DNA from: Balanoglossus misakiensis
Taxonomy: Eukaryota > Animalia > Hemichordata
Assembly (NCBI GenBank): GCA_040954595.2
Contig: CM082596.2
Coordinates: 5,015,849 to 5,079,848, forward strand
DNA length: 64,000 bases
Direction of reading: 5' to 3'
The notes beneath the pieces were generated by a model. That model saw only the letters and a program-made list of their open reading frames with translations. It did no database searches and was not told the DNA's origin. Positions within the stretch are counted from its first letter, which is position 1, and every line of letters begins with the position of its first letter. Of the stretch, positions 6,806-49,712 are shown piece after piece. Position numbers and translations under genes: made by a program.

Positions 6806-7135
6806 GATTTGGTACAAGTCAACTGATTGCTGTTTAGCTGCTACTGATCAACTTGCTCACAAGGAGGACCCTTTTGGACTGTGCGTGTGTGACGTGGCAA
6901 CCCCTGCATCAAGCAAGCACGGCATCGACCCATCTTGCGCAGACGTGAGACGAGAGCCCCGGACGGGAGACGGAGCATGGTAGCCTGGCGGTGACCCACC
7001 GGTAATTGTAGCCTGTCAAGCTGGCTCGTAAGCAGATACCCAGCATTTCTTTCAGGTCCGATGACGAGGAGGTGTTTGCCAATGAACTGAGCCCCAACGA
7101 TGGCATAGTTTACAAGGAGGCCAGTACTCTTACAG
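6806..7135 (+). CDS. TRAK1: TRAK 5' exon (UTR plus coding LARKQIPSISFRSDDEEVFANELSPNDGIVYKEASTLT)
   Basis: Acceptor ttttttcttcag at 6805. Donor ACAG|GTGAGT at 7135, phase 1, joins G+AT to give D of DVC. KEASTLT-DVC resembles TRAK2 RDSESIT-DVC as recalled. An alternative acceptor tttctttcag lies at 7055. Confidence 0.65.
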
Positions 7136-10100
7136 GTGAGTGGAATTGTGGAGAGAAAAGTTTGCAATCTATCTAGAATGAAAATGATGTAAAACAACAC
7201 AGATACATCAGTGTCAATCTTATCAAACTTATTTTTTGATTTCCCGATTTTAATGCCTATGCTTTCAAATGATTAGTAAATTAGTGCATGCCATACTAAC
7301 AGTTGCCTTTTTGTTTTGCTTATTGTGTGTTGGTTTCATTTCATTTCATGCTTTGCCAATGTCACAGCCACTGCCACTGATAATGCCACTGCCAATGCCA
7401 AGGTCATTGCCAATGCAGGGAGTGGAGTAGCTGGTCAGGTACCCGGCAAAGCCTCTCCAGGTATTACCATGTCATTTTGTGCACTGTCACTGAGCCTTGT
7501 GATCTTAAAATGCTTCTGTTTCTACCTAACACCACTTCATATAGCCTACGACACGACACAACACAACACAACACAACACAACACAACACAACGCAACACA
7601 ACGCAACACAACACAACACAACACAACACAACACTGTCTTGAAGTTTGACTTGAGATATAAAACAAATGTGCACATACAAATTCTTCCATAAATTTCATC
7701 TGCACATCCGTTCAGTGGGTTTATGGCACATTCTGGGATAGATATGATTTCATGAAATCTCAAATACTTTGCGTGACTTCTCTGTTTGCGGTGGAGGGTG
7801 CTTTGGACTTTGTGTGTGGTTTTTCTAAACTTGGTGGTAGGGGGCGCTTTTACTAACACACCCTGGGTAGATGTCTAGTTCCCGCTACTGTCTATGGTTC
7901 TATGTACTCTCTTCAACCTCTCTCACAACACAGCCCCCTCACCGGCAACTCAGTCTAAGCCAAGCCAGGTCAAACAAAGCTCTGAGTAGCTGACATTTGC
8001 TAGTCAATACAATGCTGGATCTGTGCTTGTTGCAAACTGTCACAGATCATTAGATACTGGCAGCTGAAAAAATATAATTTTAATTCATGATAGTTCAAGT
8101 TCATCATTGATGCAGAACACCATGTAGAAAATGGCAGTCAAATTGAACTTAATCACAAAGTAACATGTACTATTTACCAAAACACATGGTTATGATGGTC
8201 AAACTTTGTTATATTATGTTTCTTTGGTTCCTTTTATCAATGATTAATTTTGATGGCCATAGAGTACACTTAAAAAAGCAACTACAGTCTACTGTAGGTA
8301 TTGAAAAATACAGTGTGTTGAAATTTTGTTTACTCTTTGCAAGTTGCAAGCACAACTTGTTTTGACACTAGTGCAACAGTTAAATTTTATGCCGTGCCAT
8401 TTCTGGTGCTGTGTTTTATGGTTTGGCCTGTTCCGCACAGACTCTTTGAATAGCCTGGGTTTATAGAATTCTCTTTAAAAACATTACCAGTTGTGAGATT
8501 CATTCAAAGACGAGGGTGGTCAGGGTACTAGGTGACTCGAAGGCATTTTGTGACTGAGGTAATTTTAAGAGGGAATGTTTGAGTGTGTGTCTTACCTCAA
8601 TCGACTTGCTCGAGCGCAAGGCCACTTTTTGATCAACAAATTGACCATGAAGCACAGTAGGTACATACGTGTGGTTGTCCACTAAGCTCTTTCTGTGGAA
8701 GACTAGTCCCACAGGTAGCACTCAATACCAGCCAACAATCACCTTGTTGTTTCACCGGCCCATACAGCACTTACTGACAGTGCGATGAGATCTCATGCAT
8801 AGTGAGATCACCACAAAATTACCCACAATGCCACAAATTTAAGACCAGGCTAGAATATTGTGAAAGGTAAACGCTCACCAATGCAAATTTAGGCACATTT
8901 CCAACAGGGAGTTGAGATCTAGCCAATGAGAGATTTTCACTTGGGTGACCTGAAAATAGGACACCACCACACGGTCATGAAAAGACTAAGGCATGCCTCT
9001 GGAGCTTGACCATTGTCAGAGTGACCAAATTCTTGCAAAGTATTGTATGATCTGTCAAGTGTAAATTTTCCATTTTCTATATAAGCTGTAAAGATTGGTT
9101 TCACTGATGTGGATTTTTTTCATGTATTCTATCACTGAGAATATCGCCAACATTGTATCTAACTCCTCTAATAAATCCTGTTACTCTGTCTTCCAATGAA
9201 TCAGAAAATATTTTTGGTAGAAATGTACTAACCGTAGTTTGATACATTTTGTGTGTGTGTTTTTTTATCACGTAGATGTGTGCAACAATTCTAATATTCC
9301 AGAAGTTGAGATTATCAGTCTGCTGGAAGAGAAAATCCCTCTCTATAAATTACGAGCCGATACAATCACTAATCTAACGTACGATCACGAAGACTGGACG
9401 CACACAGCTTCCGCCGCTCACCACGAGCAGGAGGAGGAGGCGTATGACCTTTCACCTGCCCTTGCAGAGGAGACACTGAAATATTTCAGTAAGTGGAGTA
9501 CAGTCTAGTCTGAGTGTGTGTGTATGTGTGTGTTTGTTTGTGTGTGTGCGTACAGTGATTTTGTTGAGACTGGTACCTTGGTAAATGTTCACGGGATTCT
9601 CCAGTTATTTCACCAGGGATCCCCTGGATATATCTATGCATTTATACGATAGCTACTTTTTTGTAGCAGAAACATTTCTGGGGTCCCCGGTTCATTTACC
9701 AATGGTTCTTAACCTTAGCAAAAACACTGTGTGTGCAGCACATTGTTCTTATGTATCAACTGTATTGTACGTAGCTTTGTGTTCGCCAGTATATGTTGAT
9801 GCTGATGGCGAAATTTTTCCAGTTTGTCTGTACTCCTCTGCTCATCTATACTGGATCCAAAGTACCGGTAAGTTACCGACTGGGTCAGGTGGGGTGTCTT
9901 ACGGCCCTGACTGAGGATTGCAGAAAAATGTAATTTCATGGAGACGAAGATGAAGCAGCCAAAAACTGTTGAAATACGAAGAAACTGGACAGCGGACACC
10001 CTCTACAATGTACTTTGTGATTTTACCACCTTGTAACCTTTCACCATGTGGTTCTCAGCTCTTACTGGTCAAATGACAAATCTTAGATTTTGGCGCAGTC

Positions 10101-13100
10101 TGATATGATAATAGTAATTGTAATTGTCAATTAGCACTAAATTTCAGATGCATATTGTAGCGTTGAAGCCAAATCTGCCTTGGCAGAAGCTGAGTACTGG
10201 AAATGTTCCAAATTTAGTTGCTGTATCATGGCAGGTCTTGTGATTTGCTATGCGGGCCACTTAACCTTAGTTACCCTTTTTGGTTAAAATTTTGAGAAAA
10301 TTGATGAGAATTCATCTGTCTCGATCAGTGATTAATTTTTCAGGGATTGAATTGTCTGTGCATGATCCTTTTAAGTTTTGTTCATATTTGACGAAAAAAA
10401 TTAATGGGGATTACGTCACTGTTTTAAGAAAATGACATAATTTGTCATGATGATCATTGCTGCAAAAGGCTGAGGCAGTTGTCGTAAAAGGGTGCAGTGT
10501 TTGCTGCAAAGGGGTGCACAGGACATTGCTGTCTTGTGATTGGCTGATGTTTCATTGTTGAGTTTATGCAACAGGTAGCTGCATGATTGACATCTTAAAA
10601 ATGCATGATGTAACCCACAACCTGTGCGATAACCTCAAATGACCTTTTTGATATGATAAGTAAAAAAACTGAGATAAAGTGTTGGACTTTGAATGGTGAA
10701 AACAGCGATGGCACAGTGCGTTCTTTGTCGGGTAATTATACACCCAGGTGTTTGCGATTCATGACCGGGCAATCTGTCAAATTATTAGTGGACGTCGTCG
10801 GATTTAGTCTTGTATTACAGATCGTGACTATTGTCAAGGCATCTGTATAGAGCCAAACAAACAAACAAGATTTTCATGGTTTCTCCCAGTCCTTGTGGAG
10901 CTGAAAAAACGGCACAACCTCGTTCCCATCTCTGTCACATTGGTGCCCACCCCATGGCCCCGTGTATCTTCTCTGTAGGAATATTCCGTCCCCGTATGCT
11001 GCGATTAACGTACTATTCTTGCAGTGTGTTGACATACTTGGTTGGGGGAGGGTGTGGGAACTGGGTGTTTTGACGTGCACCTGAGGTCGAAATTTTATCC
11101 CAGGGCACTGGAAATATGATTGGCTGTTTTGCTTGTTTCTTGCATAGCATATCAGATGTTGTCCAGGTGTTGTGTGTGATACATTCACACGATGGAAATT
11201 TGACTTAATTGGAAAATAATCCATGAGAAATGTTTGGGTTGCTGTCCTTGGTTCAATAAACTTATAATGTCAGTGATGAAGGAGCTGACCTGCTTTCTGT
11301 TGCTTGCACTGTAACTACACTCTACATCTCAGTAATTAATAGATGATAAACTCCTTTGTTGCTAGGGGTTACATAATCCTCTGCAGCTATGAGAATTATA
11401 ATATGTCAAAAGGGATGACTGATCACGTTTGTATACTAATGAATTTATAGCCGACAGTTTTCAATAAGATTTCAAGTGATTAACTAGGACTTGATTATAA
11501 AGCAGCATGCCCAGTCTAGCCAAAGGTCACCCGCAGGAAATTGTGTCTCTGAGGAAATGAAGTGGGAACAAGCACACCCTGGTTACCTAGCAACAGTGAT
11601 TATGTACATTACCACTTGTAGTGGGGACTTTGTGTTCCGTCTGCTAAGGAATCTTGATTCCCTGATGCCTATTGTTCTCCTAGACTTTTATCCCATTGGA
11701 TCATTATCCTACAGAACAATTGCCACAGTGGGATACATCTTAAGAGGCTAATATCCAGTGAGATAAATGCCCTTTACTGATTTAAGTGGGTAACAACAAA
11801 ACAATGTCTGAAAAAATTACCTCATTTGTGATGTACATATAAAAGAATTTAAAGTAGCAATGTCTACCTGGTGCTCATAGGTTAGTACCAGGTGTATGTA
11901 CTGATTATGGTGTGTTTTCTTGTTGTTCATACTATCTACCAAAATATCTGAATCTTCAAACAAGTGCTCGATTTCCCATGTTCATCAGGTATGATGATAA
12001 CGTCAGATGCGATGAACTTCATTAACCATGAATGTCACGAAGTGGCTCGTTGTTTACATTGCACACATTCAAGTATTCTCTCCAGGGTAACTTCCTTGTC
12101 AAATATTTGCCTTTCCATTTATAGAGTTTTAATTTTCTGCATATAACTGCATGAAATTCTGAAATGTTTGGATACATTGAGTCAAGAGGGGTGTCTGTCA
12201 GTTCAGAAAGTAGAAAAATAAACATTAGCAGTGATTGTCACATTACTTCAGCCATACATTATTAGGACAGTTATAAACAGAATTTTCATAATATGATTAC
12301 ATAAGCACTAATATTAAAAAAATTATGGATGCGTTTATGGAAAATTTATATTATATAATGCCTTACTAAATGTATTTTGGCGATGTATTCTGTGTGATTG
12401 TCACGACAACTGAGGTTGCTAGTTTTTCAGTCACTGACTGGCGACGTATTGTAGGTGTGTCTGAATTGAAAGTGGATTCATAATGTAGTGACGAATAAGC
12501 TTGATATTAGCATGACAATAGAATCATTGTCCAATCCTTTGAGTGAAGCGAACACCCTTCACTTCATTGTCTTTTCAGCGCCGTGTGTACGTACGTATGT
12601 AACCTACCGGCGGTCGCTGACTCGATTATAAGGGTCCGAGGGCTGCCATCGGGCGACCTTACCACACCTGGAAAATGTAGCGGTGTCACTATTCTGTCCT
12701 GTTTTTATTTCGAGGGAGATAAGCGTGTGCGCATCATTCTGTGCCTTTCGCCGCCCCTGTGACTGAAAGCGAACGTAAAATGTAGCGTGGGTTATGCCCC
12801 TATAGTGGGAACCTGCCTCATTCATGGAATTCTGTGTGTCCGACATTGACAGTACTGATGTAACAGCCACGGAATGTGCCTTAAATGCCGTCACGCAAGG
12901 TACGAATCCGAACGTTAATTTCACCTGATCGCTTTTCTGCTAGTAATAGTATGATTCATGTAACAAGAGGGGTCATCCTTCATTTTGTAATCCACACACA
13001 TACGCTTGATGTTCACTCCTAATGATAGGGTACATATTATCTCAACCAGGTTCTATGTGAATGTCAAGTGAATTTATTTCTCTTTGCATAAGCTTGAAAC

Positions 13101-16100: not shown

Positions 16101-19100
16101 TGGATTTGACACCTTCTAAATCCTAGCACAGAAATCTCACCGGTGATTTCCAAGGTCTTCTGTATTGCAAAGGGAAAGCTCAATGCTCCAGTTAAACAAC
16201 ATTTGTGGGATTTTTTCAGATTCTTTGGTCGCTACAGCTCGCTATAAACACTTGTGCGCGGACAGACCTCCTTTTGTGAGTGTGCAGTTTTGAAGTTTCA
16301 AGAGGCTTGTTTTGCGTCGGGATCAAGTCACGCGTCCAATGATATGTGGTGGCGTCTTTATCTGGAAAACATTGCCTTCAACTTTTGCATGCCCACATTC
16401 ATTTATCACTTGATTTATTTCTAGAAATGCCATCACAGAACTTTGTTTGGCTCGGTACTCACATCCAAACTACATTTATCCAAGACAAAACATTTATTTT
16501 TAATAAATTTGGAGTAGAAAATCGACATGTATCTCATATGCTGATTTGTTTCAGATGTTGATCCAACACACACATGTCCAGACAGTGTATAAACATGTAC
16601 AATGTATGTTGTGTGTACATAACTGAAATTTACCTGACAGACCCCAGATAGCAGCTGATCTGTGTGTTTGCATTTGTGATTGTAAACAATTATAACTCCC
16701 AGTCAAAATAAACGTATCCTGCTTTGTTGTTTTAGGACATTTACTACCAGGATATCCTTGTGTTGTTGTTGTTATTGTGGTGGTTTATCTGGTTGCTGTT
16801 GTGATGGTACATGTACTACATGTACTGGTTGTTGTCAATCGAAACATGTCATCAAACATATAGGCTATAGTCCCCTTCTACTGTCTGTGTTCAAACACCC
16901 ATACAATGAATGAGTGTTGCTTTGACATTTCTCTTTGACATTCTGATATTCTGTCATAGTCACATCCAGAAATTGCAGTAATATTACCGGTATTTATTTA
17001 TTCTTTAATTGATAGAGATATACAATTTGTATGTAGTACAAGGCTTGTAGAGCTTGGTCTAGCTGTTGCATTCTTGTGTCGTCCTAGCTCTCCACATCTT
17101 GCGTTGAGCGATCGTCTCACACGTAAGCCACCACAAAATCCCACTACAGTGTCAGAATTATGAGAAAAGAGCATCAGACTTACAAACTATTCTCCGTCAG
17201 CTTGCGATAAAGCCAACGTTATCGCGCGTTCAATCTTGATACAAGCCCATTAATTTTACCAATCTGTGTGCATAGGTATTATTGATTTACTGAATTCCAG
17301 TCGGAAGCGCTGATAAGTGGCTTGAAACAATGCAGGTTATTGATTCGGATCGGCCAATTTGCTGTCTTTTGTCGGTCAATTGGCTGCTGACAACTCAATT
17401 GGCGACTCTCCCGATTCCTGGCTGATAACTGGTGCACGCTTACATCATCGAATGAACAGGTGACAGGAAAATGCTGGCTTCAAGTAGATTCCTGCAAAAT
17501 GATTTAAGTGCGTGGTGTTGTTGATCAACTGCTGATAAACACTCAGAGTGGCTAAAACCCTGGCCTGACATATGCGCATATATTTTTGATCTCCTGGTAA
17601 ATGACAATTTGTTTGTAAAAATTTGTTAATTTCAGGTGATGATGGAAATATACAGAGATGAGACTTCTGCTTGTCTGACTTGAATAATAACAAAAATGTC
17701 AAGTAGTAATCACAGTACCCAGCAAGTTATCCACGAAAACTTTTTAACTAAGTATGTACATGAAAGTTAGTTATCCATCAAGGGAAGGATGATGTTGCTT
17801 GACAGCCTTCTCCAACAGCACAGACGTGCTGATGCCGCCCAGAATGTCCAGTTGTGAGACGACGACGTGAAGCTCCTTAGACGCCCACGCGACAATCTCC
17901 ACGGCCATAAGCGAGTCGACGCCATAGTCGATCATGGGCTTGGTGATGTCAATGTCGTCTGGCGACTGACCGATCATCTGGCCCAGTTTCTTTTTGACCG
18001 AATTCTCCAGGTCTGTGGGCGACAGCTGGCGTTTGCGCTTGTTCAAACTTGAGTAGTCCATCAGGTGGTGAAATTTCAAGTTTGTCTTGTGTGTAAATTT
18101 AGCTGTTGTGACCCAGTCCTGGTGGGCAAAAAACGGGATAATTAGATTCCGGTTCATACATTATACAGAAGACTGTGCTCATCCTACTGAAGAGAAATTG
18201 CTAAACAAATGTCACGACCATTGTTGTTGTTGACAAATCAATTCTAGTCCGGACTTGAATTCAAATTGTGGACATGAACAATACCGACAATACACACATA
18301 TGTTGTGTTGATAAAGCTAAATGCTGGGCATTTCATGTTTCAGGAATTTGAACAAGAAACTGCAGTAGCTACAGGAAACAATAAGTGTGATGTTAACTAC
18401 TTCTTACCTGATTAGCCAAGCAAACTACAGGCTTTTTGTAATCAGTCAAAAGACTCCCAAGAAGTTCCATGATTTCATCGATGTGAAGTGTGCCAGCTCC
18501 CTGGTCTTCCAGAACCTTGATGGTTTCTGCTTTGCCCTCAAGGTACCCAGCCCCTCTGACAGCTCCCATCTGCAGTGACAGTGCTGGTAGGCCCAGACCG
18601 TGCCTGTGTTCTGCAAGGGCGTCCAGCGCAGAATTGGCTGCGCAGTATGCTGGTTGAGCCGAGTGGCCCCGTACTGTCGACACTGACGACATCAGGAAGA
18701 ACACGTCCAAGCTTTCTTCTCTTGTCAGATCGTGCAAGTGATGCGCGCTCACAGCCGTTGACTTCATCACAAGGTCAAGCCGGTCTGGTTTCAAGTCTGG
18801 CAGGAGAGTCTCGTCCACTACGCCGGCAAGATGGAAGACACCCTTCAGTGGTGGGATATCTGCTCTGGATTTCACCTGGCCTAAGATACTCTTCACAGTG
18901 TTGTAATCAGACACGTCAGCTGCAAAGGTGTGGACTGCAACACCTTTACGCTTCAGGAAATCCCGAGTGCGCCGTGCGGCAGCCGACTGCCCACCACTTC
19001 TCGACACCATGACCAGATGTCTGGCTCCCATCCTCTGCATCCATCGGACCAGCGCCTGACCGACCCCGCCGAATGCACCGGTTACAAGGTACGCTGCCTC

Positions 19101-22100
19101 TTCATGGAAGATGTCACCCTGTAGATCAAATCTTTCCGGAACGTAGGAAGCTGGAATTTCAAAAACGACTTTACCGATATGCAGGCCCTTCGACATCATC
19201 CGAAAAGCTTCCAAGTAGTCACCGATTTGATACACGGTCACTGGCATTGGAGTCAGTTTTCCTTCTTCAAAAAGTCTGACAACCTGTTCGAGCGAGTACT
19301 GCACGCCTTCGGGATCTTGTCGTAGCCTGATGTCAATCTGACAGGAGAGGAAAGACTTGTTTTCCAGGAAGGTCTTCAGGTCCATCTGCGAATTTTCCAA
19401 TATGTCTCTCTTCCCGATTTCACAAAATCTTCCTCCAGGGGCCAGGGAAGCCAGCCCCCTTTCCATCAGTCGACCGTACAGAGAATTAAGGACTACATTC
19501 ACGCCTTTACCATTTGTCCACTCCATGACGTCGTGGTAAAACTGATCTGATCTGGAATCTGTGACGTATTCAATGCCCAACTCGTTTCTGAGATAGGCGC
19601 GCTTTTCTTCGGTTCCCGCTGAACAGATGATTGTTGCTCCTTGCATCCGTGCAATTTGGATGGCAGCTAAACCGACACCACCACAGGCAGAGTGGATCAA
19701 CACCGTTTCTCCCTTTCTCAGGTTGGCCCTCTCGACCAAACTGTGATAGGCTGTGGTGAAGGCGACTGTGATGCCAGCACTATCGACCATGTTGAGGTGT
19801 TTGGGTTTAGACATCACGAAGCGGCCATCATTGATGACATGGGAAGCGAAACTGGACTTTGTGAATGCGATGACCTCATCCCCAGCTTTCACGTGAGTGA
19901 CACCTTCACCGACGGCTTCAACTACTCCGGAGCACTCCAGGCCAAAACGGTAGCGCGTCTCCTCAGCCTCTAATCCTTCCAACATTCCATGAGCCATCAT
20001 GACGTCCTTGAAGTTCAGCGCTGCCGCATGGACCCTTACGATCACTCGACCAGGTCTGAGGGTCAAATCAGGTAGTCCGCAGAATCCCAAGTCATCAAGC
20101 GACGCACCCTTTCCATGATGGCGGATGTTTTGTTCAAGGCGCCAATACTTGACGCTCTGGGTACAGACTTCAGGTTTGGTAGCAGTGATAATTCTTGGAC
20201 AGAGAACTTGGTTTTCTTTCATCACGAGTGCTCTCTCTGGTTGGTTTGAATTGCGGATGATGCCGCACAGCATTTGCACGTTTTGTTGCATGGAAACTTG
20301 AGAGTCTAGGTCCACATAGTACACACGGCCTGAGATGATTTGGTTGCAGACGGATCCCGCGAGACCAAAAGCGGCGTGTGACCACAGATTTCCTTGCTGT
20401 TTGTAGGCCCCATGTGTGACGATGTAAACGGACCGGATCCCATCTTTACGTGCATCCATTTCCTGCAACAAGGCGAGGATGAAATGGAGTTTTGCATCCC
20501 AACTGCCGCACCAGTAGATAACGTTTGATGGTTTGTTGGTGATGATGACAGACTGGATGTCATCCATCGTTGGAGTCATGACCATAGAGCAAGGCTTCTC
20601 CAAAGATTCACTTATCGCCGCCTGGACCGTTTCATCAGGACAGCCAAGCAAGAACCATCGGTCGTCGGCAACATTGCTTTGCTCCGGAGGATACAGGAGG
20701 TCGGCAGTTTTGCGACCAACCACTATGCTGTGGAAAAGTTCCCCTGGGGTGGAGACACTGACAACATCACTGTAACCGTTCTCCCTGAAGAGGTCCTCCC
20801 AGCCTTTACGAGGCAGCCAGCATGTTTCTTGTCTGAAGTCTTCGTACACCCAGCAGAGCGGAAGGGAGCCGAAGACTAACTCAGTCATGTAGTTGGAATT
20901 GGTTACCTCGTACATGAACAGCCAGCCGTCTTCGCAAAGGAGGTTGCGCATGTGGTACATAGCAGTGTTGACGTCGACCGCAAGGTGGAGGGTATCAAGA
21001 CACACTACAATGTCAACACTCCCAGGAATGAGTCCCTGAGGTTCGACGTCTTTCTCGATGTCGAGCTGCTTGAATTGTACCAGTGGAAACTGTTGGGCGT
21101 GTGCGAAGAACAAAGCAGTCCGGTCGGTGAAAACATACTCGACTTGTTTCTTGGACACTTCTTCTTTCAAATTTCCGAGGATGTACTTCGAGAGGCCACC
21201 CAGTCTTCCGCCGACTTCAAGAATTCTCACCACCTTCTTCTTTTCCATTGACTTTCTTACAGCTCTTGCTACTGCCTCCGCACCAGCTTCATAGAACAGG
21301 CGAATTGTTGGTGCGTCAGCAAAGTACTGCGGAAGACTGTCTGGGGCAGACAGCAGTGACACGCCAATGTCAGGATCTTTGAGTGTGTCCGCCAAGGCAT
21401 CCCCAAGAGTCTTGACCATCTTCAATTCTTGGGATAGTTCTGGAACAGTGGCAGCTACTTCTTCTATTGCCACTGGAATGTGTCCTCTATTTAGTGTTTT
21501 AAGAGTGGTATCTGCGGCAATGACCCTCAGTCTTCTAATAAATCGCCCATTTCTTCCCCCAACTTCATTATCTTTAACTGCATCGAGGGCGTGCTTGATG
21601 TAAGACTTGCAGATAGTCTTGATTTGTGGCATAACTGCATCTGTTCTCGTGACTATGTCCATGTCTTCTGGGAAAAGCTTTCGCAGGCTGTCCTCTTCAA
21701 ATAAACAGCACACATCGTCTGTAGTAGGGAGGCATGACTTCACGGGCTGTAATTCTGTTGAGTACAGACACGACTCCAAGTCAACTGCAGAACTGCTGGC
21801 TTGTAGACTCTGGACCACCAATCCAGCAACTTTCACCAGAACCTGCCCATTGCTGCTGCTGCACAGATATGCATCACCTGTGATTGACGTACTGTCGCAA
21901 TCTGTTACTTTTGCGTAAGCCAGAAGCTGCTCTCCCAAGGGCACTTTTGGAACAGTCATCTGCATCACCCCCAGCTTGACAGGCAGATAAGCTGTGGTGA
22001 ATTTACCCAGTGATGCTATCACCAGTTGAAAGCATCCATCCAGCAGTGTTGTCTGCACTCTCTGTTTGGTGTCAGAAGGGTTCACCATCACCGCCACTGC

Positions 22101-25100
22101 CTCTCCGTCGCCCAGCATCATTTGCTGAATCACCTGGAAGGTGGGGCCGTAATTCAAGCCTTTGGATGCAAGCTTTTGATACAGTTCGACACCTGACATC
22201 AAAGTTTTACATCTCTGCTTTATCTCGGGGAGTTGAAGGCACTGGAACATTTCACCAGGGGTCTCCGGAGTGTCCATCTCTGCCGTGTAGTGCAGGGTTT
22301 CGCCAGATGTTACGTGAAGAGATGAACCTTCTTTTGAGATTTGAAGTGCGACATCTTCTCTGGATGGTCTGCCACTTTCATCTTGTGGCCAAATCAAGGC
22401 ATGAAGGAAATGTATGTTTTTCAGTGCCGGGGTTTCCGTTTCCCCGAAGAACATCTCCACGCAGTACTCTATGTAGCCAGCACCGGGAAATACCACTTCG
22501 TTATCCACGGCGTGGTCAGCTAAGAACGGGAACATGTCAAATGACAGGTTGCCGTTTTGCCCCTTGAAGCTCTTGTCCTCCAGTCCTAGACGATGTTTCA
22601 TCTTGTGTTCGGGTTCCGTCCAGTGAGTGTGATGTTGCCAAGCGTATGTCGGAATGGGAGCCCATTTGGAAGTGTTGCCTGTCATGTTATTCCAGTCGAT
22701 GGATACACCTGCAGCGTACAAAGAGCCAACGGCCCTGAGCAGTGTATGGCGGTCATCCTTGCCTCGCTGTCCGAGTGGTGCCGTGATGATCTTTGGCAAT
22801 CCCACCTCCTGCTTGATTTTATTGACGGATGATATCAGGGTTGCGGACGCTCCACATTCTATGATGATGTCCGGTTCGATTTCAGTGAGCATGGTGGTTA
22901 CAGCATCACTGAAGGCAACTGCGTTTCTGACGTTCTTCCACCAGTAGGGCCCATCGAATGTACCGTTGTATCGCTTGCCATCTGCAGTAGAATAAAATGG
23001 GATGCGGCCGCGTCTTTCAGTTGTTCTGACAACACCATCCATAGCGTCCAGGAAGCTCTTCCGAATTGGGTCCATGTACGGTGTGTGAAAGGCACACTGG
23101 ACTCGCAGTTGTCTTGCTTGCTGTGGATTGTTTGCAGCGATATCCTGGATCACTTTGATGTCGCCAGCAATCGTGACTGATCCAGGTGCGTTGACAGCCG
23201 CAATGTACACGTTGTCGTGTTCTGCGCACAACTTTTCTGCTTCTTCGGTGGACTTGCGTAGAGCGGCCATTCCTCCAGCTCCTTTCAACGTTGCCTGCTG
23301 CGTGCTCCTCACATAGATAGCGGTCACTGCTTCAGCCATGGTCAGCCCACCACATGCATGAGCAGCGGCGACCTCACCGAGACTGTGTCCCACTACAGCC
23401 GCAGGGGTGATGCCCCAGTGCTTCAGCAAATGGAACAGTCCAATCTGGAAGAACAGAATGACAGGCTGGGACACTTCCATTTCATCTACCAGGTTATCAG
23501 AATCGACAGGGAGGTTTGCTGTGGTGGATGGTTGCTTCAGGCCGTTGAACAGACCGGCATCCTGAAGGAGAGACCACCCGCTGAGTCTCTGGAACACAGC
23601 ATCACACTGGTCGATAACTTCACGGAAGACTTCTTCAGTAGCGTACAGCTTCTTTCCCATGGCTGCCCACTGCTGTCCCTGGCCGGGGAAGACCATGCAC
23701 ACTTTAGGCTGTGTGCCAGACGTTGTACCCGTCACAATGGAATCACTGGACTCCCCATCGAGATAGGTCTCCAAGTTGCGCTGGAACTCCTTCCCGGATT
23801 TGGCCAAGATGCACATTCGGAAATCGTGGTGCTTTCTTCTTATGGCTTGCCAGCCGATCACTCCCAGAGCATCAGCGGTGTTTTTAAAAGAGAGCCATTT
23901 CTTTGCCAAGTCGTCAACTGCTTCCTTTGTTTTTGCTGACAGAGGCAGCAGTATTTCTTCACCCACCTGTTCACTGCCGAACTGCCATCCACAAACACGA
24001 TTTGCTTCGTCTTCCATCGCCGGCGGTTCATCAAGGACAAGGTGAGCGACTGCTCCGGCAATACCAAAGCTGTTGACGCCGATGCGGTAGCTTTTGTTCG
24101 GCAAGAAGGCCTCCTTTGATGTTTGCACTTCCAGCTTCAACCCTTCCAGATCAATTGATGGATTCGGTCTCTTGAAGTTGATTGTGGGACAGAGCGTGCG
24201 CTTGGACAGCATAAGGGATGCCTTGATTGTCGCGGTAATACCAGCCGCGCATTCGTTATGCGCGAAATTGCTCTTTCCAGACCCGATTTTCAGAGGGTCT
24301 TTTCTGTGTGGGGCAAAGGCGTGACCAATTGCACGGGCTTCGATGGGATCGCCCACGGGGGTACCCGTGCCGTGGGCTTCGACGTAGTCAACAGAGGACT
24401 TGGGCAGGTCAAATCGGCTGTACGCCTCGTTCATGACGTGCTCTTGGGCAGCCTGCAGAGGCATGGTGAGGCTTCCGCAGAAACCATTGGCGGCGATCGC
24501 GCTCCCACGGACGACCGAGTAGACGTGGTCGCCGTCGGCCACAGCCTGTGAAAGCGGCTTCAGGACGAGAGCGCCCCAGCCCTCGCTTCGGACGTAGCCC
24601 CGTGCCTCGTCGGAGAAAGGACAGCACCGACCCTCCGGGTTCAGCACTCCGAGAGCGCTGAACCCGACGGTGACGTCTGGGATGAGTACGCTGTTGCAGC
24701 CGCTGACCACGGCCACCTTGCACTCCCCGATCCAGAGATGCGTGCAGGCCAGATGCATGGCCGTCATGGACGAAGCGCAGGCTGTGTCGACAGCGTAGCT
24801 CGGGCCTTGCAGGTTGAACGCGTAGGATATGCGATTGGCGGCCACGCTGTGGGCGTTGCCGGTTATAGTGTATGGGGTCATGGTGTGGGCGTCGATGTTA
24901 AGAAGACCATAGTCGTTCATACCGATGCCTAGAAACACCCCACAGTCTGCCTTCAGTGTGTCTGGATCGATGCCCGCGTCTTCGAAGGACTCCTCTACCA
25001 CCTCAAGTAGTAGTCTCTGCTGGGGGTCCATGGATGCCGCCTCTCTCGGCGATATCTTGAAGAACCCGTGATCGAACTGGTCCACGCCATCAACGAACCC

Positions 25101-28100
25101 CGCCCTCCTGGTCACCATCTTGCCCGGTTTCGACTGATCGCTGTCGTAGAAGTCGTCGATGTTCCACCTGTCCTTGGGTACTTCTGTCACTGTATCCCGG
25201 CCTTCACTGATGACCTCCCAGAAACCTTCTGGTGAATTCACTCCACCTGGCATTCGACAACCTATGCATGGAAAAATATAAATATGCTAGTGTTGAAGTT
25301 TTATAGAAAAGTCATCTTGACTTTGAACCCTACTGGCAGATCAAATCACCTACCTATCCCTGTGATTGCGATGGGAAATCCATAGGTTTCACTTTGCCCA
25401 GTAGTTGGACACTTGCTGCTTTCCCCTTTGGTGTCCTGTTGATGTAAAAATGAAATTAATATTAATTAGGAGGTGAATAGTGACTATTGAAATCTTTCTA
25501 CAATCAATGGAAAGATGTTTCTAAAAAGAGTAAATATACCTTGAAAATCCCTTATTTTAATTTTCTTCATAAACATAACACAGGGGCCATGTTGAATTTC
25601 ATATTTGAGACAATTTGTTACAAGTTTGCTATGTCATTCCAAATTTTGCAAAGTGATTCCTGATTTTATTAAAACGAGAACAATTCAAAGCAAAATACGA
25701 GAAAAAAAAAGTTTAAGACTGATATTGAGGCACGTTTTATCTCAATCATGTCGATCAATACCAAAAAGTAAAATACCTGTTTCAGTTGTTTTGCAAGCGA
25801 CCATTTTTCTCTGTCTTCCCTAGATGGCATCGTTGGTCTGAAGTATAAATCCTATCTGCAGGTTTTCAATGTGGAATTAGACTGGTTAGTGTAAAGAAAA
25901 AAAAGACACCCTTTTGGCTTCGTCATAATAACCAATGAACAGTGTTCCTTAATCCCCTGTTGTTTCGGAGACAATAACTCGAAAATGGAGAGGTTCACAC
26001 CATTATCGTTTTGTGTGTTACTGGTGCGCGATCTTCTTGAATGACGTCTGATTTTGTTCGTGACAAGACAACCAAATGCTTAGCAAAGTCCCAACATTGA
26101 AATAATAAGGATAGCAAAATCATGTTTGCGCATCATGAAAACTTGTGACAGTTTTAGTATCTGGTACGTCATGGATATTGTGAAAAAAATTCATTTGCCA
26201 GCTCGCGCTTACGAACAGAAAATTTACGCTTGAATCCTGTCACGTAACGGCCACACAGTGACCTTCAACAGTGACCTTCATGGGGGAAGTTCACCTTCAA
26301 ATCGGGTCATCAAAGATATCTAAAAATCCAATACCTACCTTTGGAAATTTTGGAAGGTTCCAGAAGGCAGCTGAATTGTCGTGTCGTATTCCCCCAAATA
26401 CTGCCTGTGAACAAAACCCACAGATTTTTAAAGTGACTTTCTTGAAACAACGCACTCGGCTACTTCTGTCTGATCATCCGCTCTCACGACGGGTGAAAGT
26501 CTTTCCGTCCTTTAACCTCTGGGCATGCATCCCATTTGCTGGTAGGGGTGTTTGGCTTGGGGTTGGGTATTCACCTTGTGTTTGTGGGCTCTGAGTGTGT
26601 GATAGCTAGTTGTGTTAGGTACCTCATTATGAATGGTAAAGCCTGAATATATGAGCAAGCATTTTCTTTTTGATCTCTAAGTAACCCAAGGCCATCTGTT
26701 GTTAAGTCAAGACGTTTAACATCAGTGTGACATGGCCCCATTCCAGCCAAAATGGGCCATTCAAATGGGCCATTCAAAAATTCTCATTCTTGTGAGCCAG
26801 GGTCTTCCTCCCGGAGACAGGAGGCTGGCTAGACTTGCTCCAAGTCTATGGGATGTGTAGGGAACGTGTCGACGCTACCCGAAACCCCAAGCTCAGTCGC
26901 AAATTCGAAACTCGCCTCACTACCAAAAACACGCTAAAGGCAAGCATGCACGCAAAAAGTATTGAAATTATTTATTAAGACAAAAAACCACCGAAAACAC
27001 AAAAAGTATTGAGATTTAAAAATCACCAAGCGACTAGTGGGCTAGTCTAGAGGCTGGCCTATTTGTCAGGGAATTCTTTTTTTATGATGAGTTATTCATG
27101 AGTTGGCAGGATAAGTTAATCGCCAGTCTTGTTGTGAAGTGTATCACCGGTTTTCATATGGTTATTAGCTATTGCTGTACGAAAAACGTTTGAGCGTGGT
27201 ATTAAAATGAGATGTTGATCTCTGTGTTGAGGGAACAGAAACCATTAAACGTGTATGAGTGTATAAAATAATAATAATAATTTATTCTCAGCCAATCTCC
27301 CTTGTATGACAGCTCACTCTGAGCTGTCATACAAGGGAGATGGGCTGTCCACCACATGGCCAAAGGTGTTGCTTTTCTGCTGGTACCTGTTGATACCAGC
27401 CCGGGCACACTGTTTTTCATCAATAGATCACCATGGAACAAACGCTGTTTCATAGTGTGTTCACACATGATATACTTGAGTCAGCCCAGGGCCACTTCTT
27501 GGCCGTACTCTTTAACAAGAGCAAACATTGCCGGTGGATGTTTTTAGTTTCTGCCAAATGTGAGCAAGGTTCCCGAGTGATTAGGGTAGAGCAATTTGTT
27601 TCTGGTCCTCCTCATTAGTTTGTTTTTCTCATCACATCCGTTGGCTTTCAAGAAATAAACCGACCCCTGGATGAATAAAATTCTGTAATTTTTTAACCCA
27701 AGGTAAATATTTTTGATGAAATTGATAGATGTGTGATTGTTGTGTAGAGGGGGGTTTGCATTACGCTCTTTCTCCCAACCTGTCTCTCAGTATCAACGCT
27801 TTAATCCAATTTAGAGCCAGACAAATTGGCTGTACACCAGGAGTACAGGCATTTATGACAGCAGAGATGTATACGGTGTTTGGTATGCTACATATTTGTT
27901 GCACGGGCCTGTCGATATGTCAACCGTTTACATGATTTGTTTCAACTTCGAAACTACAGCCGAGAATGCTTTTACTTCGGATTCTGTATGACATGTGTGT
28001 GCATGTCTAGAGTTTGGTGAACAATTGAAGCTAATCAAAGAAATGTTCACCAGAAGAGACAGACAGACAGACAGAGATGGAGGGGTAGGGAGAGATAGCC

Positions 28101-31100
28101 AGACAGTGACAGAGAGACAGGCAGACAGACAGATTGAGGGAGGGAGGGAGGGAGAGATATACAGGTTGGACAGTTAGATGGAGGGAGAGAGATTGGTCGA
28201 TTTTCAAGAAACAGACTGTCATGACAAAGGTGTCAGAGAGTACATTGTGAAATTATCTCCTGCAAGCACTTTTGGTTTGCGTGAAACTTGGACCGGTGGA
28301 TGACACAGGTACACAATGTACACATGTTTGGCTCTGTAACTGCAATCGTGTTATCAGTGGTTACAGCATATGTGATATAACAGTGATAATACCCACACTT
28401 CCATCATTGATAGATATCGAGGTCATGATCTTTCCTGTCATTACTATGGATTAGAGATTAAGTAATGGGGTCCAAAGATGGTGTGCACAAGCACGCGGGA
28501 ATGACAGACCCAAATATACGGACAGGCCTGTCCAGGGGCTTGACAACGTTTAGGCACGGCTGTAGTTGTCATGATCACTTATCGGCGTGGTTATTTGTGT
28601 ATATGGGTGTGTCACATTTGTGGGATGATAGTGGGCAATTGTTGCTGATTTAGTAGTTTGTGAGGATGAGTTGGGATGGTGATCATATGATGCTGATGGT
28701 GATGGTGATGATGATGATGATGATGGTCTTGGTGGTGGTGGTGGTGGTGAAGGAGATGATCTTGTGATAATGATGGCAGTGGTGGTGATCTTGGTAATGA
28801 TGATAATGATGGTCACTATGACCATGATCATAACTATCACGTCCTTGCCCTTGACAGTGGCCATGTTGCTAATTTTCTCCAACAAAGAAGGTCGACAGTC
28901 TAACGTTTTTGGTATGTGTGGGTGGAGCATTTCATGGGGTTTTGAATTCTGAGATGGTGAGAAGTGCCAGAGAGATGAAGCCAATGACAGCAATGAACAC
29001 ATCGCGTGCTGTCAAAGTCTACAGGCAGTAGTGAACCCACCCTAGATCTGTTGCATCGAACATGAGTCACGTATCTGTCACGTGTTTGAGGATGCAGAGG
29101 GTGTACATGTATAAGCTGAGCTCCACAAATTTATAGCCTACCTGTCGCATCTTTGACCCAGCTGTCTGGGTGGCTAAACTTTAGGATGCTATTTATTATC
29201 GAGCGGGACAGAGTTTGAGATAAGGCAGTCTTTCCTCAAAAACGCTTCTGACGAATGCAGAAGAACGCGAAAAATTGCGAGGTTCTGGAATATCACTTAC
29301 TGGACGTCATAGCGATTGTTCATGCACCCAGAGTGATAAAAATTAGGGATAATATCAGTTGTATGTCTGTCAAGATTTACATGTAGTTATTTTTAGACCC
29401 CTGGATCATAGCTGAGAGACTTCCCTCAGACCACTTTTGTGGATGTCATCGCCTGGCCCGCACCACTTCAGACGTTCCTGGCAACGTTATGCAATTAACA
29501 GGTGTGCGGTTTGCAGAGGGCCATTTTATCATTGTGGGCATCCGACATCCAAATACCAGTGTGTATAACTCATTGTGCTTATGTTCATCAAAATGTCAAG
29601 GATGGCGTTCCTCCGTTTATACGTATTTCCAAATTTTGATATTTACGACTGTAATGAGATTAGTTTTAGTACTTTAAAGGGACTTTTGACATTATTTTCT
29701 TTATATGGTGAACACCGATTATTCATTTTGGCAAGATTTTTACTCTCGTATCCTACAAACAGGATGGAAGTTGTATATGGTCGAACGTTGATTCACTATA
29801 TATCCACATGTATAATAACATAAATAGTGTCTTGTATCAAACATAATTAATGGAAAAAGGGCAGCGAGAGAGAGACTTTGAACCTTTAAGTTTTGAGTGG
29901 CTACAGCCTATCAGAAATGTCTACCCCTCGATTTGTTGCTTTTGAATGTTTGATATCATAAGTTCTGCTTTTTTACTTAAAAGAACATTGTTATGATGGA
30001 GTTGTCCATTTTTGGTGGAGTGTGGGTCACTTGGTAGCCCTCATCGAGTTTAGCGTTGAAGCGTTTTTCTGCCGAGAGATCGGATGTTCATGACATTCCT
30101 CAGTTGGGCAGCGCTGCAATCGTGCCTATTGTTCTTTTATTGTACCTGTCGGCCTTCTTTAGACAACTCTTGAGGAAGTCCTTGCCCTTGAAAAGTTCTC
30201 CAGATTGCGATAAAGGATTAGATTTGCTCTGTCCATGGGTCCTTGGATGTCAAACGTCAATACCTATTATATGCATGCCTTCTTCTCCAGCTTATGCTTT
30301 GATGTAAAATTGAGAATTCTCATCAAAATTCGCGAAAGATACAGATTGTAGATGTGCTGGATGTGTGAGTCATTCAAGTCGAAATCTGCAGAACTGCGCA
30401 CCTGGAGGGACGGTACACATAGCCCAGTTTGCGGGGTCACTCAGGGAACAGACGAAAAAGTTATTAAATAACCCGTAAGTAGGTGACAGCATGCCTATAA
30501 ACATATACCCCGCCTGTCAGCGTTTGTTATTATGTAACTTAGGATTCGTCAAAGTTCGAGTCGCGCAGAACCCTGCCAACATTTTGACTGACGGAGCCTG
30601 ATGTTGAACAACAGGGCTCTGTGGAGGTAGTGAGTGTGGTGGGTTTTTTTTGAGGTTCGCACCGGAGTATGGGAAACAGAATTGTCCGACTACGCAAAGT
30701 TAAATCCCTGCTATGGAGACTAGAGTTATTTTGGTTGAAGATATTAGACGACGGAAACAGCTCGTCGTCATAGATGAACACCAGGGTAGGTTTTTTCTCT
30801 CGACTTATCGCAAGAATAACGATAGCTGGTAACTGTTGTGGTTTTTAGCGCAGCGTTCTGGGTTTAAAGTCAGAGATCGCAAAGGTGTCGTAATTTCTGA
30901 AAAAAGATCAGGAGCCAGTGTTCGTCCATATAAGAGATTTGGTAATTATTGATGATGATCGTATCAGCAGCCTCCATTGTTACTAAGAAAACCAATAATC
31001 TGGGATTTGAATAGCCTTGTATAACGCTCACAGAGTTTTTCAGAAACTGCAGAGGGACCGAGCGAGAGAGACAGAAAAAAGAGAATGGTGGAGAGAGAAA

Positions 31101-47464: not shown

Positions 47465-49712
47465 CTCTGTGCTTCCCCCCCAAGCTGCAAATGGCACATC
47501 TGCTCTGGCAATGGACAGGAGCAGTATACATGTCGATTATGGGGGTGTACCGTATATGCTTGTGTGACTGGATGAACTTTTGGCCAAAATGCAACTTCTG
47601 GCATGAGGAACCTCTGCTGTATATAGCACGCACACATACACCATAGAGTGATCTGATGCATTGACATTATTCTCTGCTAAGGAAGTTGTTGTGGAAGGCT
47701 TATATCAAGATAAGCAACGGCCAATCCCAAATGTAGAAAATATTTAAGGATGTGAAATGCAAAACAGACATTTCAGGAATTGTAGTCTTTCTGTCAATTA
47801 TCAAAGTCATCCCCCAAAAGTATATATTTTCTTGAAGTCCAGTAATAAGGGGACCCCAGTTGTGTACTGTGCACAGCATTTATTTATATGTGTTTAAAAA
47901 AAGACAAAAACTGATAATTTTCTCACCAATGTTTTGTTTCGACCAAACAACTCCAAAACCATGACTATATGAATGATTTTTCACTTTCAATGCCCAACAA
48001 TCATACCCTATACTAGCCATATAAAACTGGTAGTTTTCACTGAAATCACGCCCTGATCTAGTGCCTTCTACAGCAAATAACAACAACAACAACAAAAGCA
48101 TTTCGAGAAAATCCAAGACAATTCCTGAAAAGTCTATTTTGTATGTCACATCTCTCTTAACTTTGTATATTGAATAACGAGTATGATTTCTCCATACTCA
48201 TGATTGTGTTTGCTGCACCCATGCATTTTTTTAAAGTTTTTATGCAAAAGCATTACTTTAAAAGGAAACCTGACTATTTTTCTCAGCAGATGTGTGCTGT
48301 AATTTTTGTGTGCAATGTTATCCTAGTATTTACTATTTTTAATTTTTAAAAGAAGCCAAGGAAACTTAGTAAAGCTTGTTTAGATGTGTATAGACATAAT
48401 GTGCCTCGGTCATTTTTGATGCCAGAAGACAATTTTCACACAGCTTGGTTTCTCCACCTATCGTGTCATTTTGATCAAAACATCTTTATTGCTGATGGTC
48501 AACTGTTCGCATATTTTGTGTTTGCAAATCAGTACCAAAATTATGTTTCTCTGTGGAAATCAAATAGCTGATATACGTAATCGTTAACCAAAACCCCATT
48601 CCCCACCAGTGCATAACTACATCACAGCTTTACAATTTAACATATCGTGGGCAAAACTTTAATTCCATCTCATTGTTCAAACATTTGGAATATTATACAT
48701 ATTTATTTTGACATTCTCTGAATGTTACCAAAGATTTTAGTCAATTAAATCTCTGTCAGATGGAGTTCTGGGATCATGTACTGTTTTGTTTACATCAAAA
48801 GTGTCGGCAGAAGCAAATTCGTGTTTTAAAACGGAACATTTCTGCATTCATATCTTTCATGGTGCTGTTATTTTTTGAGCAACACTAGATAATGTTATCA
48901 AGTGAAGCTCATCGACATAACTAGCTTATAAATTCCGTGCTTATAGTAAAGCAGACTTTGCTTCAACAAAGGTTGCCCTGATTGGTTAGGTTACAATCGT
49001 GCGATATTCATTGTTAAGATATAATATATAATTTATGAGTGGGAAGGACACCCAAATGTGGACATTTGTTAATCATTTACAAACTTGGACATTGCATGTA
49101 TAAATTGTATATAACTCGTGTTGCTGGGGCATTAGTAATGTTTTGTGTAATGTATATATACCAAATTCCTGCTGCTTCCGTAGATTTTTAAACTTGGTGA
49201 TTTTTCAAGCAGTGTTTTCTCGCAAATGCCAATATTCACAGATTTCTGTTGAACCGGACTTCACAAGAATGAAAATATCTCAGTGATTCCTTCGTGGGTG
49301 TTACTGGAGGGGGTCACAGTTATAATTCATGACTTCATGCATGTGTTATGGAGAGGGGGGAGTTTGACACCATTTCGCTAACTGTAGATAGTGTGAACAT
49401 GATGATCCATTTTGTGGCACATTGTTGTATTACCCAGTTGTAAGGGGGCGTGGACAGATGGATAATGATGTATAAGAGAAGGCCTTCTCTAGTATATATT
49501 TAATCTGTCCATTAAATGGGTTTGTGTACAATGTACATGAGAGTTTGAAAGAGAACCTGCAATTAAAATGTTGTCTTTAAAGCCACGTGGTCAGTTTATT
49601 TCCAGAGGTAATACGTTCACACACAGCGATGAACTTGGCCGAAAGGTGCATTCTAACAATGTTTCCTATAGGCCTATTCCATCTGTGAATTTTCAAAATT
49701 TCTTCATTAAAA

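What the first reader, a model, noticed from the sequence alone, without database searches (positions are those of the whole stretch)
17771..25830. Complete animal polyketide synthase nested antisense inside the TRAK/Milton intron
Seen: an intact PKS of about 2445 aa lies wholly within the 31,088-nt intron (9489-40576) that splits the conserved TRAK motif KYF|xLCAERV, on the opposite strand, and has its own three introns. Established: animal Pks1-type enzymes such as sea-urchin Pks1 make aromatic pigment precursors, and TRAK is a housekeeping mitochondrial transport adaptor. Inference: a specialised-metabolite gene moved into a housekeeping gene's intron, probably as a lineage-specific relocation or paralog. 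I know of no description of this arrangement but cannot search for one. No tailoring enzymes (FMO, sulfotransferase) are seen in the window.
Basis: partly seen in the sequence, partly recalled or inferred. Interest (0 to 1): 0.8.

Follow-up and report, generated by a model that had tools for sequence, protein, structure and literature searches.

The report
Acorn-worm polyketide synthase inside TRAK gene
An animal that is likely an acorn worm carries a full-length polyketide synthase gene on the opposite strand among the front exons of its mitochondrial-transport gene TRAK, likely a copy that moved there in this lineage; gene nesting of this kind is common in animals, but two changes at active-site positions mean the enzyme may make a different product from its relatives.

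Summary
A four-exon, open 2445-codon PKS (KS-AT-DH-pseudoMT-ER-KR-ACP, no TE) lies antisense between TRAK exons 9276-9488 and 40577-40653. Homology points to an acorn worm close to Ptychodera flava (TRAK 86%, PKS 74-75% identical). In P. flava, Glandiceps and two Asterias species every retrieved PKS of this family lies on a sequence other than TRAK's, and the window copy branches inside the P. flava paralog set, so a lineage-specific, probably DNA-level, relocation is likely.

Corrections: (1) The 31-kb 'intron' is TRAK's alternative-promoter region, with four first exons. The one RNA-type run shows TRAK starting at 36.5 kb, past the PKS, so the PKS is nested only for upstream isoforms, whose splicing was not seen. 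(2) Aromatic pigment does not follow: unlike CrPKS, the KR tyrosine and the DH and ER motifs are kept. This copy alone has KS GMMD to GMND and KR Lys2214 to Thr, and its last nine codons are in another frame from relatives. (3) Antisense nesting of young duplicates is common in animals.

Verdict: a new member of known kinds (SpPks1-family PKS; nested duplicate), of modest interest.

The parts
25777..25830 (-). PKS exon 1 (start codon, 18 codons)
   Evidence: three full-length P. flava paralogs also have 18 residues ending in Gln before an Asp, which suggests a shared intron position (inference)
25354..25435 (-). PKS exon 2
   Evidence: AG/GT boundaries, in frame
18408..25261 (-). PKS exon 3 (6854 nt): KS about 25261-24174, AT 23693-22704, DH 22553-21798, pseudo-MT 21272-20766, ER 20054-19164, KR 19097-18555
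   Evidence: domain coordinates converted from the Pfam residue ranges; motifs; DNA contig 19995-20586 identical to the window at depth 43
24915..24917 (-). KS Asn161 in the G-M-x-D motif (Met in 20 of 21 named deuterostome relatives with a KS, Asn in none)
18756..18758 (-). KR Thr2214 at the conserved Lys column (Lys in 21 of 21 named deuterostome relatives with a KR; aligns to the Lys of AmphB KR)
18645..18647 (-). KR catalytic Tyr2251, kept (Phe2209 in the CrPKS-like XP_033103353)
17771..18118 (-). PKS exon 4: ACP (Ser2399 at 17914-17912) and stop; last 9 codons out of frame with relatives
16997..17770 (-). putative PKS 3' UTR ending near AATAAA at 17002-16997
   Evidence: contigs of the RNA-type run X3 at 17056-17521 and 17492-17595, 0 differences, depth 5.1 and 3.7; signal; strand not given by contigs
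7057..7136 (+). probable upstream TRAK coding exon of the long isoform (exact acceptor not settled)
   Evidence: weak match to the Asterias long isoform (E 0.63), AG/GT context
9276..9488 (+). TRAK long-isoform exon (HAP1_N 1-49)
   Evidence: (57.5% to Asterias X1, E 5e-24)
12824..12899 (+). TRAK alternative first exon upstream of the PKS (P. flava X10/X6 type)
30713..30785 (+). TRAK alternative first exon (P. flava X11/X7 type; only the first 10 residues match)
   Evidence: (E 0.046)
36521..36674 (+). TRAK alternative first exon (P. flava X5 type; also in Glandiceps and Saccoglossus); the one seen spliced
40170..40290 (+). TRAK alternative first exon (P. flava X3 type)
   Evidence: (E 8e-15)
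40577..47464 (+). 13 common TRAK coding exons (HAP1_N, Milton domain) to the stop
   Evidence: (11 of the 12 joints listed; the 43447-43560 joint only as a loose end)
26821..27058 (.). 220-nt MITE-like insertion (26830-27049) with 6-nt terminal inverted repeats and a 9-nt target duplication, 1 kb upstream of the PKS start; absent in another allele
   Evidence: (229-nt skip in X1 and X2; depth 16,600 against about 55)

Best explanation
This is a full-length SpPks1-family polyketide synthase gene lying antisense among the alternative first exons of TRAK in what is likely an acorn worm; it is likely a duplicate that was copied at DNA level out of the hemichordate PKS gene set after the split from Ptychodera flava, is likely tolerated because the TRAK transcript seen starts downstream of it, and is predicted to make an unmethylated malonate-derived, at least partly reduced polyketide with no functional link to TRAK. 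Shown: the gene model, domains, motifs, tree position, the different host sequences in relatives, and TRAK splicing from the 36.5-kb exon. Inferred: the direction of the move (parsimony over P. flava, Glandiceps and Asterias); the DNA route (three introns kept; exon 1 length shared with P. flava paralogs); a surviving close sister copy elsewhere (depth hint); and expression (a short RNA-type contig in the 3' UTR). Predicted enzymology, from family knowledge: AT (Ser672) loads malonyl-CoA on ACP Ser2399; KS (Cys207, His342, His380) condenses iteratively; KR, DH (His962, Asp1120) and ER can process the beta-keto group, KR probably less well because the Lys is replaced (role of the Lys recalled, not read); the MT is structural only; release is without a thioesterase.
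For: Gene model and domains. Organism: TRAK 86.0% (671 of 780) to P. flava, 74.1% to Glandiceps, 67.9% to Saccoglossus; PKS 74.1% and 75.5% to the closest P. flava proteins, 44-52% to echinoderm and 47-48% to amphioxus proteins. Location in relatives: 5 of 5 P. flava PKS hits lie on a 40,999,305-nt sequence and TRAK on a 44,037,996-nt one; 2 of 2 Glandiceps hits on 25,083,287 against TRAK on 21,295,702; Asterias amurensis 24,396,582 and 18,103,274 against 24,821,337; A. rubens 12,766,117 and 20,558,067 against 22,587,610. Tree: the window copy sits in a hemichordate clade (100) with P. flava XP_070582137/582138 (SH-aLRT 99; with XP_070582058 added, 100). All TRAK proteins retrieved per hemichordate are isoforms on one sequence, so no paralog was seen for the upstream exons to splice to. 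DNA contigs cover 30 of 30 bins of 8.5-28.4 kb in X1 and X2; in X1 the ten bins within exon 3 average about 112 against about 54 for twelve flank bins, in X2 about 215 against 115 (my averages). X3 shows 12 splice joints of TRAK, the 5'-most from 36674. Nested genes typically arise by insertion of young duplicates and about 71% are antisense in Drosophila (PMC5174743, passages).
Against: No relative's DNA could be read, so an unannotated or broken PKS in the P. flava TRAK region is not excluded, and the protein search covered only lengths 1263-4020 aa. Runs X1-X3 are one sample of one study and may be the assembly's source. The tool states that contig depth is no copy number. PKS expression rests on two short contigs of unknown strand at depth 4-5 from a run labelled 'DNA?'. 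Shared intron positions are inferred from protein ends only. No transposon ends or target duplication frame the PKS. Sea-star enzymes also keep the KR Tyr although PMC11414698 reports 10-12-carbon pigments in that group, so a kept Tyr does not prove reduction. No SpPks1 or SpPks2 sequence was retrieved for the trees.
Confidence: 0.62

Rival explanations
1. Same relocation, but the enzyme works like SpPks1 and CrPKS: KS, AT and ACP alone build an unreduced chain that cyclises to an aromatic pigment precursor, with the KR silenced here by loss of the Lys instead of the Tyr and the ring size altered by the GMND change.
For: Same architecture and clade as CrPKS; KS-AT-ACP suffice in SpPks1 and the GM(L)MD motif sets chain length (PMC11414698); Lys2214Thr and Met161Asn are unique to this copy among 21 named relatives each.
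Against: KR Tyr, Ser, Asn and the NADPH motif, DH His and Asp and the ER motif are all kept, whereas the CrPKS-like protein has changes in KR, DH and ER. The review passage read names Ser, Tyr and Asn, not Lys, as the KR active site (PMC7327777).
Confidence: 0.22
2. The nested copy is a surplus duplicate under relaxed selection, on its way to becoming a pseudogene.
For: Faster than its P. flava sisters in 6 of 6 non-independent relative-rate tests (P 0.0002-0.006); 19 changes at otherwise invariant columns against 4-10 in four of five other hemichordate proteins; frame change in the last 9 codons; very low RNA-type cover.
Against: 2445 open codons, canonical introns and all core catalytic residues kept; GC3 0.58 against about 0.40 GC in the flanks; Glandiceps XP_077986958 has 29 such changes and similar rate asymmetry without being nested in TRAK.
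Confidence: 0.15
3. The nesting is older than the split from P. flava, and the copy was lost or is unannotated there.
For: The window copy is only 74-75% identical to its nearest P. flava relatives while TRAK is 86%, which leaves room for a missing true ortholog; P. flava DNA was not read.
Against: All 7 hemichordate PKS hits lie off the TRAK sequences; a 7-kb open frame is unlikely to be missed by RefSeq annotation (inference).
Confidence: 0.08
4. Assembly artefact: a PKS-bearing segment was spliced into the TRAK locus.
For: No spanning record; high-copy repeats lie in and beside the PKS.
Against: TRAK first exons that match P. flava isoforms lie in one orientation on both sides (12.8 and 30.7 kb), so two misjoins would be needed; flank depth is even across 9.8-17.8 kb and at 25.8-26.4 and 27.1-28.4 kb.
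Confidence: 0.04
5. The placement is functional: PKS and TRAK share regulation, or PKS transcription steers TRAK promoter choice.
For: The PKS start faces away from the X11-type and X5-type first exons at 4.9 and 10.7 kb; transcriptional interference is reported for nested genes (PMC5174743, passages).
Against: The arrangement is not seen in four relatives; no known shared pathway (own knowledge); no expression data across tissues.
Confidence: 0.05

Closest known systems
SpPks1 (sea urchin) and CrPKS (Anneissia japonica), echinoderm pigment PKSs (PMC11414698)
   Same: Domain order KS-AT-DH-pseudoMT-ER-KR-ACP without TE; sister clade in the tree; 45.1% identical to XP_033103353, which fits CrPKS numbering (Leu130, Phe at 2209). 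The paper states that SpPks1-like proteins occur in acorn worms.
   Different: KR Tyr, DH His and ER motif kept here but changed in the CrPKS-like protein; KS motif GMND instead of GMMD or GLMD; KR Lys replaced; located in TRAK. SpPks1 itself was not among the retrieved sequences.
Ptychodera flava PKS paralogs XP_070582137, XP_070582138/9, XP_070582058, XP_070532346/7, XP_070532355 and Glandiceps XP_077986126, XP_077986958
   Same: 66-76% identity, same architecture and motifs, same 18-residue start in three full-length P. flava proteins.
   Different: They lie together on a sequence other than TRAK's; those with the domains keep KS Met and KR Lys; none has a described product in the papers searched.
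Nested (intronic) genes of animals (PMC5174743; PMC3814207 seen as search listing only)
   Same: Opposite strand, long 5' intron, young duplicate, faster evolution of the internal gene.
   Different: Internal genes are typically small, intron-poor and RNA-derived; this one is 8 kb with three introns and probably DNA-derived, and it is nested only for TRAK isoforms that start upstream.
SpPks2 and medaka OlPKS (biomineralisation PKSs; PMC4604110, passages)
   Same: Animal iterative type I PKS.
   Different: Their listed architectures lack MT and ER (SpPks2: KS-AT-DH*-KR-ACP-TE; fish: KS-AT-DH-KR-ACP), while this protein has both and no TE.

Membership tests
SpPks1-like (ambulacrarian) animal PKS | Domain order KS-AT-DH-MT-ER-KR-ACP, no TE | tested here: met
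   architecture from PMC11414698
SpPks1-like (ambulacrarian) animal PKS | Groups with echinoderm and acorn-worm Pks1-like proteins | tested here: met
   hemichordate clade 100, sister to the echinoderm clade holding the CrPKS-like protein (91, 100); quick trees; SpPks1, SpPks2 and FAS not included
SpPks1-like (ambulacrarian) animal PKS | KS Cys-His-His, AT Ser and ACP Ser intact | tested here: met
SpPks1-like (ambulacrarian) animal PKS | GM(L)MD motif beside the KS pocket | tested here: not met
   GMND; Met at that place in 20 of 21 named relatives. One changed residue; the tree placement is unaffected.
Aromatic pigment synthase of SpPks1/CrPKS type | KR inactive through loss of the catalytic Tyr | tested here: not met
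   Tyr2251 kept; the Lys column is Thr instead
Aromatic pigment synthase of SpPks1/CrPKS type | Makes ATHN, YWA1 or a like aromatic from malonyl-CoA without NADPH | not testable with these tools
   needs enzyme assay
Highly reducing iterative PKS | KR NADPH motif, Ser, Tyr, Asn; DH His and Asp; ER NADPH motif | tested here: met
   KR residues as in PMC7327777
Highly reducing iterative PKS | KR conserved Lys (role recalled) | tested here: not met
   Thr2214
Highly reducing iterative PKS | Active C-methyltransferase SAM motif | tested here: not met
   GGRLGG, like the family's GGRMGG and unlike the fungal GAGTGG in the same alignment; called a pseudo-MT in PMC11414698
Nested gene | Lies wholly between two exons of one host gene | tested here: met
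Nested gene | A host transcript is spliced across it | tested here: inconclusive
   only the 36674-to-40577 joint seen; upstream exons lay outside the stretch laid, and 4 loose ends were not shown
Nested gene | The internal gene is itself transcribed | tested here: inconclusive
   two short X3 contigs in the putative 3' UTR, strand unknown
Transposon-carried gene (Pack-MULE, Helitron) | Terminal repeats, target duplication or transposase remnants framing the gene | tested here: not met
   none; decayed ends would be missed

The most novel reading that the evidence does not exclude
A relocated acorn-worm PKS copy is caught switching from a reducing to a non-reducing (aromatic pigment) synthase by its own route: loss of the KR lysine rather than the tyrosine lost in urchin and crinoid enzymes, together with a GMND change in the chain-length pocket. 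With its Lys- and Met-bearing P. flava sisters at 75% identity, it would be a natural pair for testing how animal pigment synthases arose and what acorn-worm PKSs make.
Probability: 0.15. Interest if true: 0.62.

Novelty: new member of a known kind. Interest (0 to 1): 0.33.

Why it matters
The nesting is an ordinary kind of event, here notable for the size of the inserted gene and as a datable relocation within acorn worms. The more useful point is enzymatic. The products of acorn-worm PKSs were not found described in the papers searched, most of this family keeps the reducing motifs that the two characterised pigment enzymes lack, and this copy differs from close sisters at two positions tied to chain length and ketoreduction. 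That makes a small, direct assay series possible.

Tried and rejected
No whole genome is held for this window, so paralogs and synteny could not be searched directly. The whole-protein homolog search timed out and was repeated by region. The KS-region search returned only multi-module or unnamed, bacterial-type PKSs among its best 120 and added no animal sequence. No RNA holder was listed; X3, labelled 'DNA?', showed spliced TRAK joints and is treated as RNA-type. Most of 9.8-16.5 kb and of the PKS coding region has no X3 cover, which is no evidence of silence. A metagenome scan with the MT region found 0 relatives among 121 pattern matches. Repeat searches found no long direct or inverted repeat framing the PKS; Pfam on 112 other ORFs found no transposase or tailoring enzyme; Rfam found 0 matches in 1-50,000. 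The careful tree did not finish (one search gives the quick tree; one search timed out; one search is a fast LG+G4 tree). Left out of the tree: P. flava XP_070582058, three unnamed partial proteins, Opitutus and Orchesella. One search used 15 of the 34 aligned rows. Literature searches without hits: 'animal polyketide synthase'+'intron'+'nested', 'polyketide synthase'+'TRAK1', 'Milton'+'TRAK'+'nested gene'+'intron'; 'Ptychodera flava'+'polyketide' gave 2 unrelated papers. The original SpPks1 paper is not held. Four look-ups of earlier findings returned nothing. Rejected: horizontal transfer from bacteria (spliceosomal introns, hemichordate clade); splicing to a TRAK paralog (none retrieved); a Pks2/otolith-type enzyme (architecture differs); the long open frames at 50-64 kb as genes (they lie in an 87/88-nt satellite).


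Full report
Observation. The minus strand carries a four-exon gene, join(25777-25830, 25354-25435, 18408-25261, 17771-18118), with three GT-AG introns and 2445 codons without a stop. Pfam finds KS, AT, DH, MT, ER and KR in the 6.9-kb exon and ACP in the last exon, and no thioesterase. On the plus strand, exon 9276-9488 matches HAP1_N positions 1-49 and the long Asterias TRAK isoform at 57.5%. Exon 40577-40653 continues at profile position 49, and the two are 31,088 nt apart. One blemish: the last nine residues do not match relatives while another frame there does, so a small indel lies just behind the ACP. The read tables were cut and do not say whether it is real.

Organism. No genome is held. 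The TRAK model is 86.0% identical to Ptychodera flava, 74.1% to Glandiceps talaboti and 67.9% to Saccoglossus kowalevskii, and the seven best PKS hits are from P. flava and Glandiceps. The window is therefore most likely from an acorn worm near P. flava (inference).

The 'intron' is an alternative-promoter region. N-termini of P. flava TRAK isoforms (16 isoforms retrieved; 3 of the 18 members of the main cluster were not listed) map to four first exons inside the gap: 12824-12899, 30713-30785 (weak, 10 residues), 36521-36674 and 40170-40290. Each splices in phase 1 to 40577 and gives an open TRAK. Run X3, labelled 'DNA?' but showing 12 splice joints at TRAK exon boundaries, has a contig that joins 36674 to 40577 at depth 51.5. 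No joint from the two upstream exons was seen, but they lay outside the stretch laid and four loose ends were not shown. So the PKS is inside only those transcripts that start upstream of 17.7 kb; for the isoform seen it is a divergent neighbour 10.7 kb away.

Is it real DNA, and is it expressed? Contigs of runs X1 and X2 cover 30 of 30 bins from 8.5 to 28.4 kb, with even depth in the flanks and a 592-nt contig identical to the window inside the PKS. TRAK first exons on both sides would need two misjoins, so an artefact is unlikely. X3 has two contigs at 17056-17595 with no difference to the window, just before an AATAAA on the PKS strand, and a 253-nt contig at 21666-21914 with 14 differences and 3 gap letters. 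This fits low expression of this gene and of a close relative, but strand and level cannot be read from contigs.

Origin. All 5 P. flava PKS hits lie on one 40,999,305-nt sequence and TRAK on a 44,037,996-nt one; both Glandiceps hits lie on 25,083,287 and TRAK on 21,295,702; in two Asterias species the retrieved PKSs and TRAK are also on different sequences. The window protein branches inside the hemichordate clade with P. flava XP_070582137/582138 (99 in the KS-AT tree; 100 with XP_070582058 in the whole-length tree). Parsimony gives a move into TRAK after the split from P. flava. This rests on annotated proteins of 1263-4020 aa; the relatives' DNA was not read. Depth over exon 3 is about twice that of the flanks in X1 (about 112 against 54) and X2 (about 215 against 115) (my averages over ten and twelve bins), a hint of another copy at 90% identity or more, though the tool warns that depth is no copy number. 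The gene keeps three introns, and three full-length P. flava paralogs share its 18-residue first segment, which favours a DNA-level copy over a retrocopy (inference). No element ends frame the gene.

Enzyme. KS Cys207/His342/His380, AT Ser672, DH His962/Asp1120, the ER and KR nucleotide motifs, KR Ser/Tyr2251/Asn and ACP Ser2399 are present (residue numbers from the motif positions printed there). The MT motif is of the family's degenerate type. PMC11414698 (parts 1-3 of 6 of the text read) reports that SpPks1 and CrPKS have this architecture, lack the KR Tyr, make 12- and 14-carbon aromatics, and that the GM(L)MD motif sets chain length; it also says that SpPks1-like proteins occur in acorn worms and that products could not be predicted from sequence. 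Anneissia XP_033103353 fits the CrPKS numbering (Leu130, Phe2209) and has changed KR, DH and ER motifs, whereas 20 of 21 named relatives with a KR, and the window protein, keep the Tyr. An aromatic product therefore does not follow from family membership; sea-star enzymes keep the Tyr too, so reduction is not proven either. Two changes are unique to this copy: Met161Asn in the KS motif (Met in 20 of 21) and Lys2214Thr in KR (Lys in 21 of 21; it aligns to the Lys of AmphB KR). That this Lys supports catalysis is my recall; the review section read (PMC7327777, section 7 part 1 of 2) names only Ser, Tyr and Asn. The copy evolves faster than its sisters (6 of 6 non-independent tests, P 0.0002-0.006; 19 changes at invariant columns against 4-10 in four others), but one Glandiceps paralog has 29 such changes, so the excess is not specific to nesting.

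Comparison and novelty. [quoted passage not shown] This case fits the pattern except for its size and probable DNA route. Few, mostly N-terminal introns are also reported for mollusc PKS genes (PMC10764717, passages). The architectures listed for SpPks2 and fish PKSs differ (PMC4604110, passages). Three searches for this arrangement found no paper; the library lacks most subscription papers and the original SpPks1 paper, and no supplements were read, so acorn-worm PKS alignments there may already show the KR and KS states. Four look-ups of earlier scan findings returned nothing.

Verdict. A real, probably lineage-specific nested PKS duplicate: a new member of two known kinds. Interest 0.33. 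The most novel reading, an independent switch from reducing to aromatic synthase, has about 0.15 probability and would merit about 0.62.

Noticed in passing
window 26821-27058: 220-nt MITE-like element with 6-nt terminal inverted repeats and a 9-nt target duplication, very high copy in the DNA runs and absent in another allele (229-nt skip in X1 and X2): a recently active DNA-transposon family 1 kb upstream of the PKS start.
   Followed up: partly
window 49713-64000: 87/88-nt satellite array beginning about 2.2 kb after the TRAK stop, about 129 copies in one orientation, then an inversion near 61,040 and about 33 copies in the other; it produces the long spurious open frames.
   Followed up: partly
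window 18200-18380, 25570-25700, 38540-38640: High-copy repeats inside PKS intron 3, PKS intron 1 and a TRAK intron (depth peaks and loose ends); single copies in the window.
   Followed up: no
window 9489-40576: TRAK has at least four alternative first exons plus the long HAP1_N-type start, shared with P. flava; a fifth short P. flava start (isoforms X9/X14) was not located.
   Followed up: partly
proteins P0018, P0019, P0408, P0410, P0417, P0418: Unnamed ENA proteins of the same PKS architecture, several per contig, all with Phe in place of the KR Tyr and Cys in place of the Asn: another expansion with a probably inactive KR, in a separate clade.
   Followed up: no
proteins P0008, P0241-P0243, P0021, P0009, P0010, P0017: Sea-star and most crinoid Pks1-like proteins keep the KR Tyr, and the KS motif varies among paralogs within one species (GMMD, GSMD, GLMD, GLSD in Asterias), more than the one-motif-per-class picture in PMC11414698 suggests.
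   Followed up: no
window 47465-48600: TRAK 3' UTR extends beyond 48.6 kb with strong 3' depth in X3; the sample is highly polymorphic against the window in exons and UTR.
   Followed up: no
window 27289-27347: Near-perfect 28-nt hairpin (96% complementary, 3-nt loop) 1.5 kb upstream of the PKS start.
   Followed up: no
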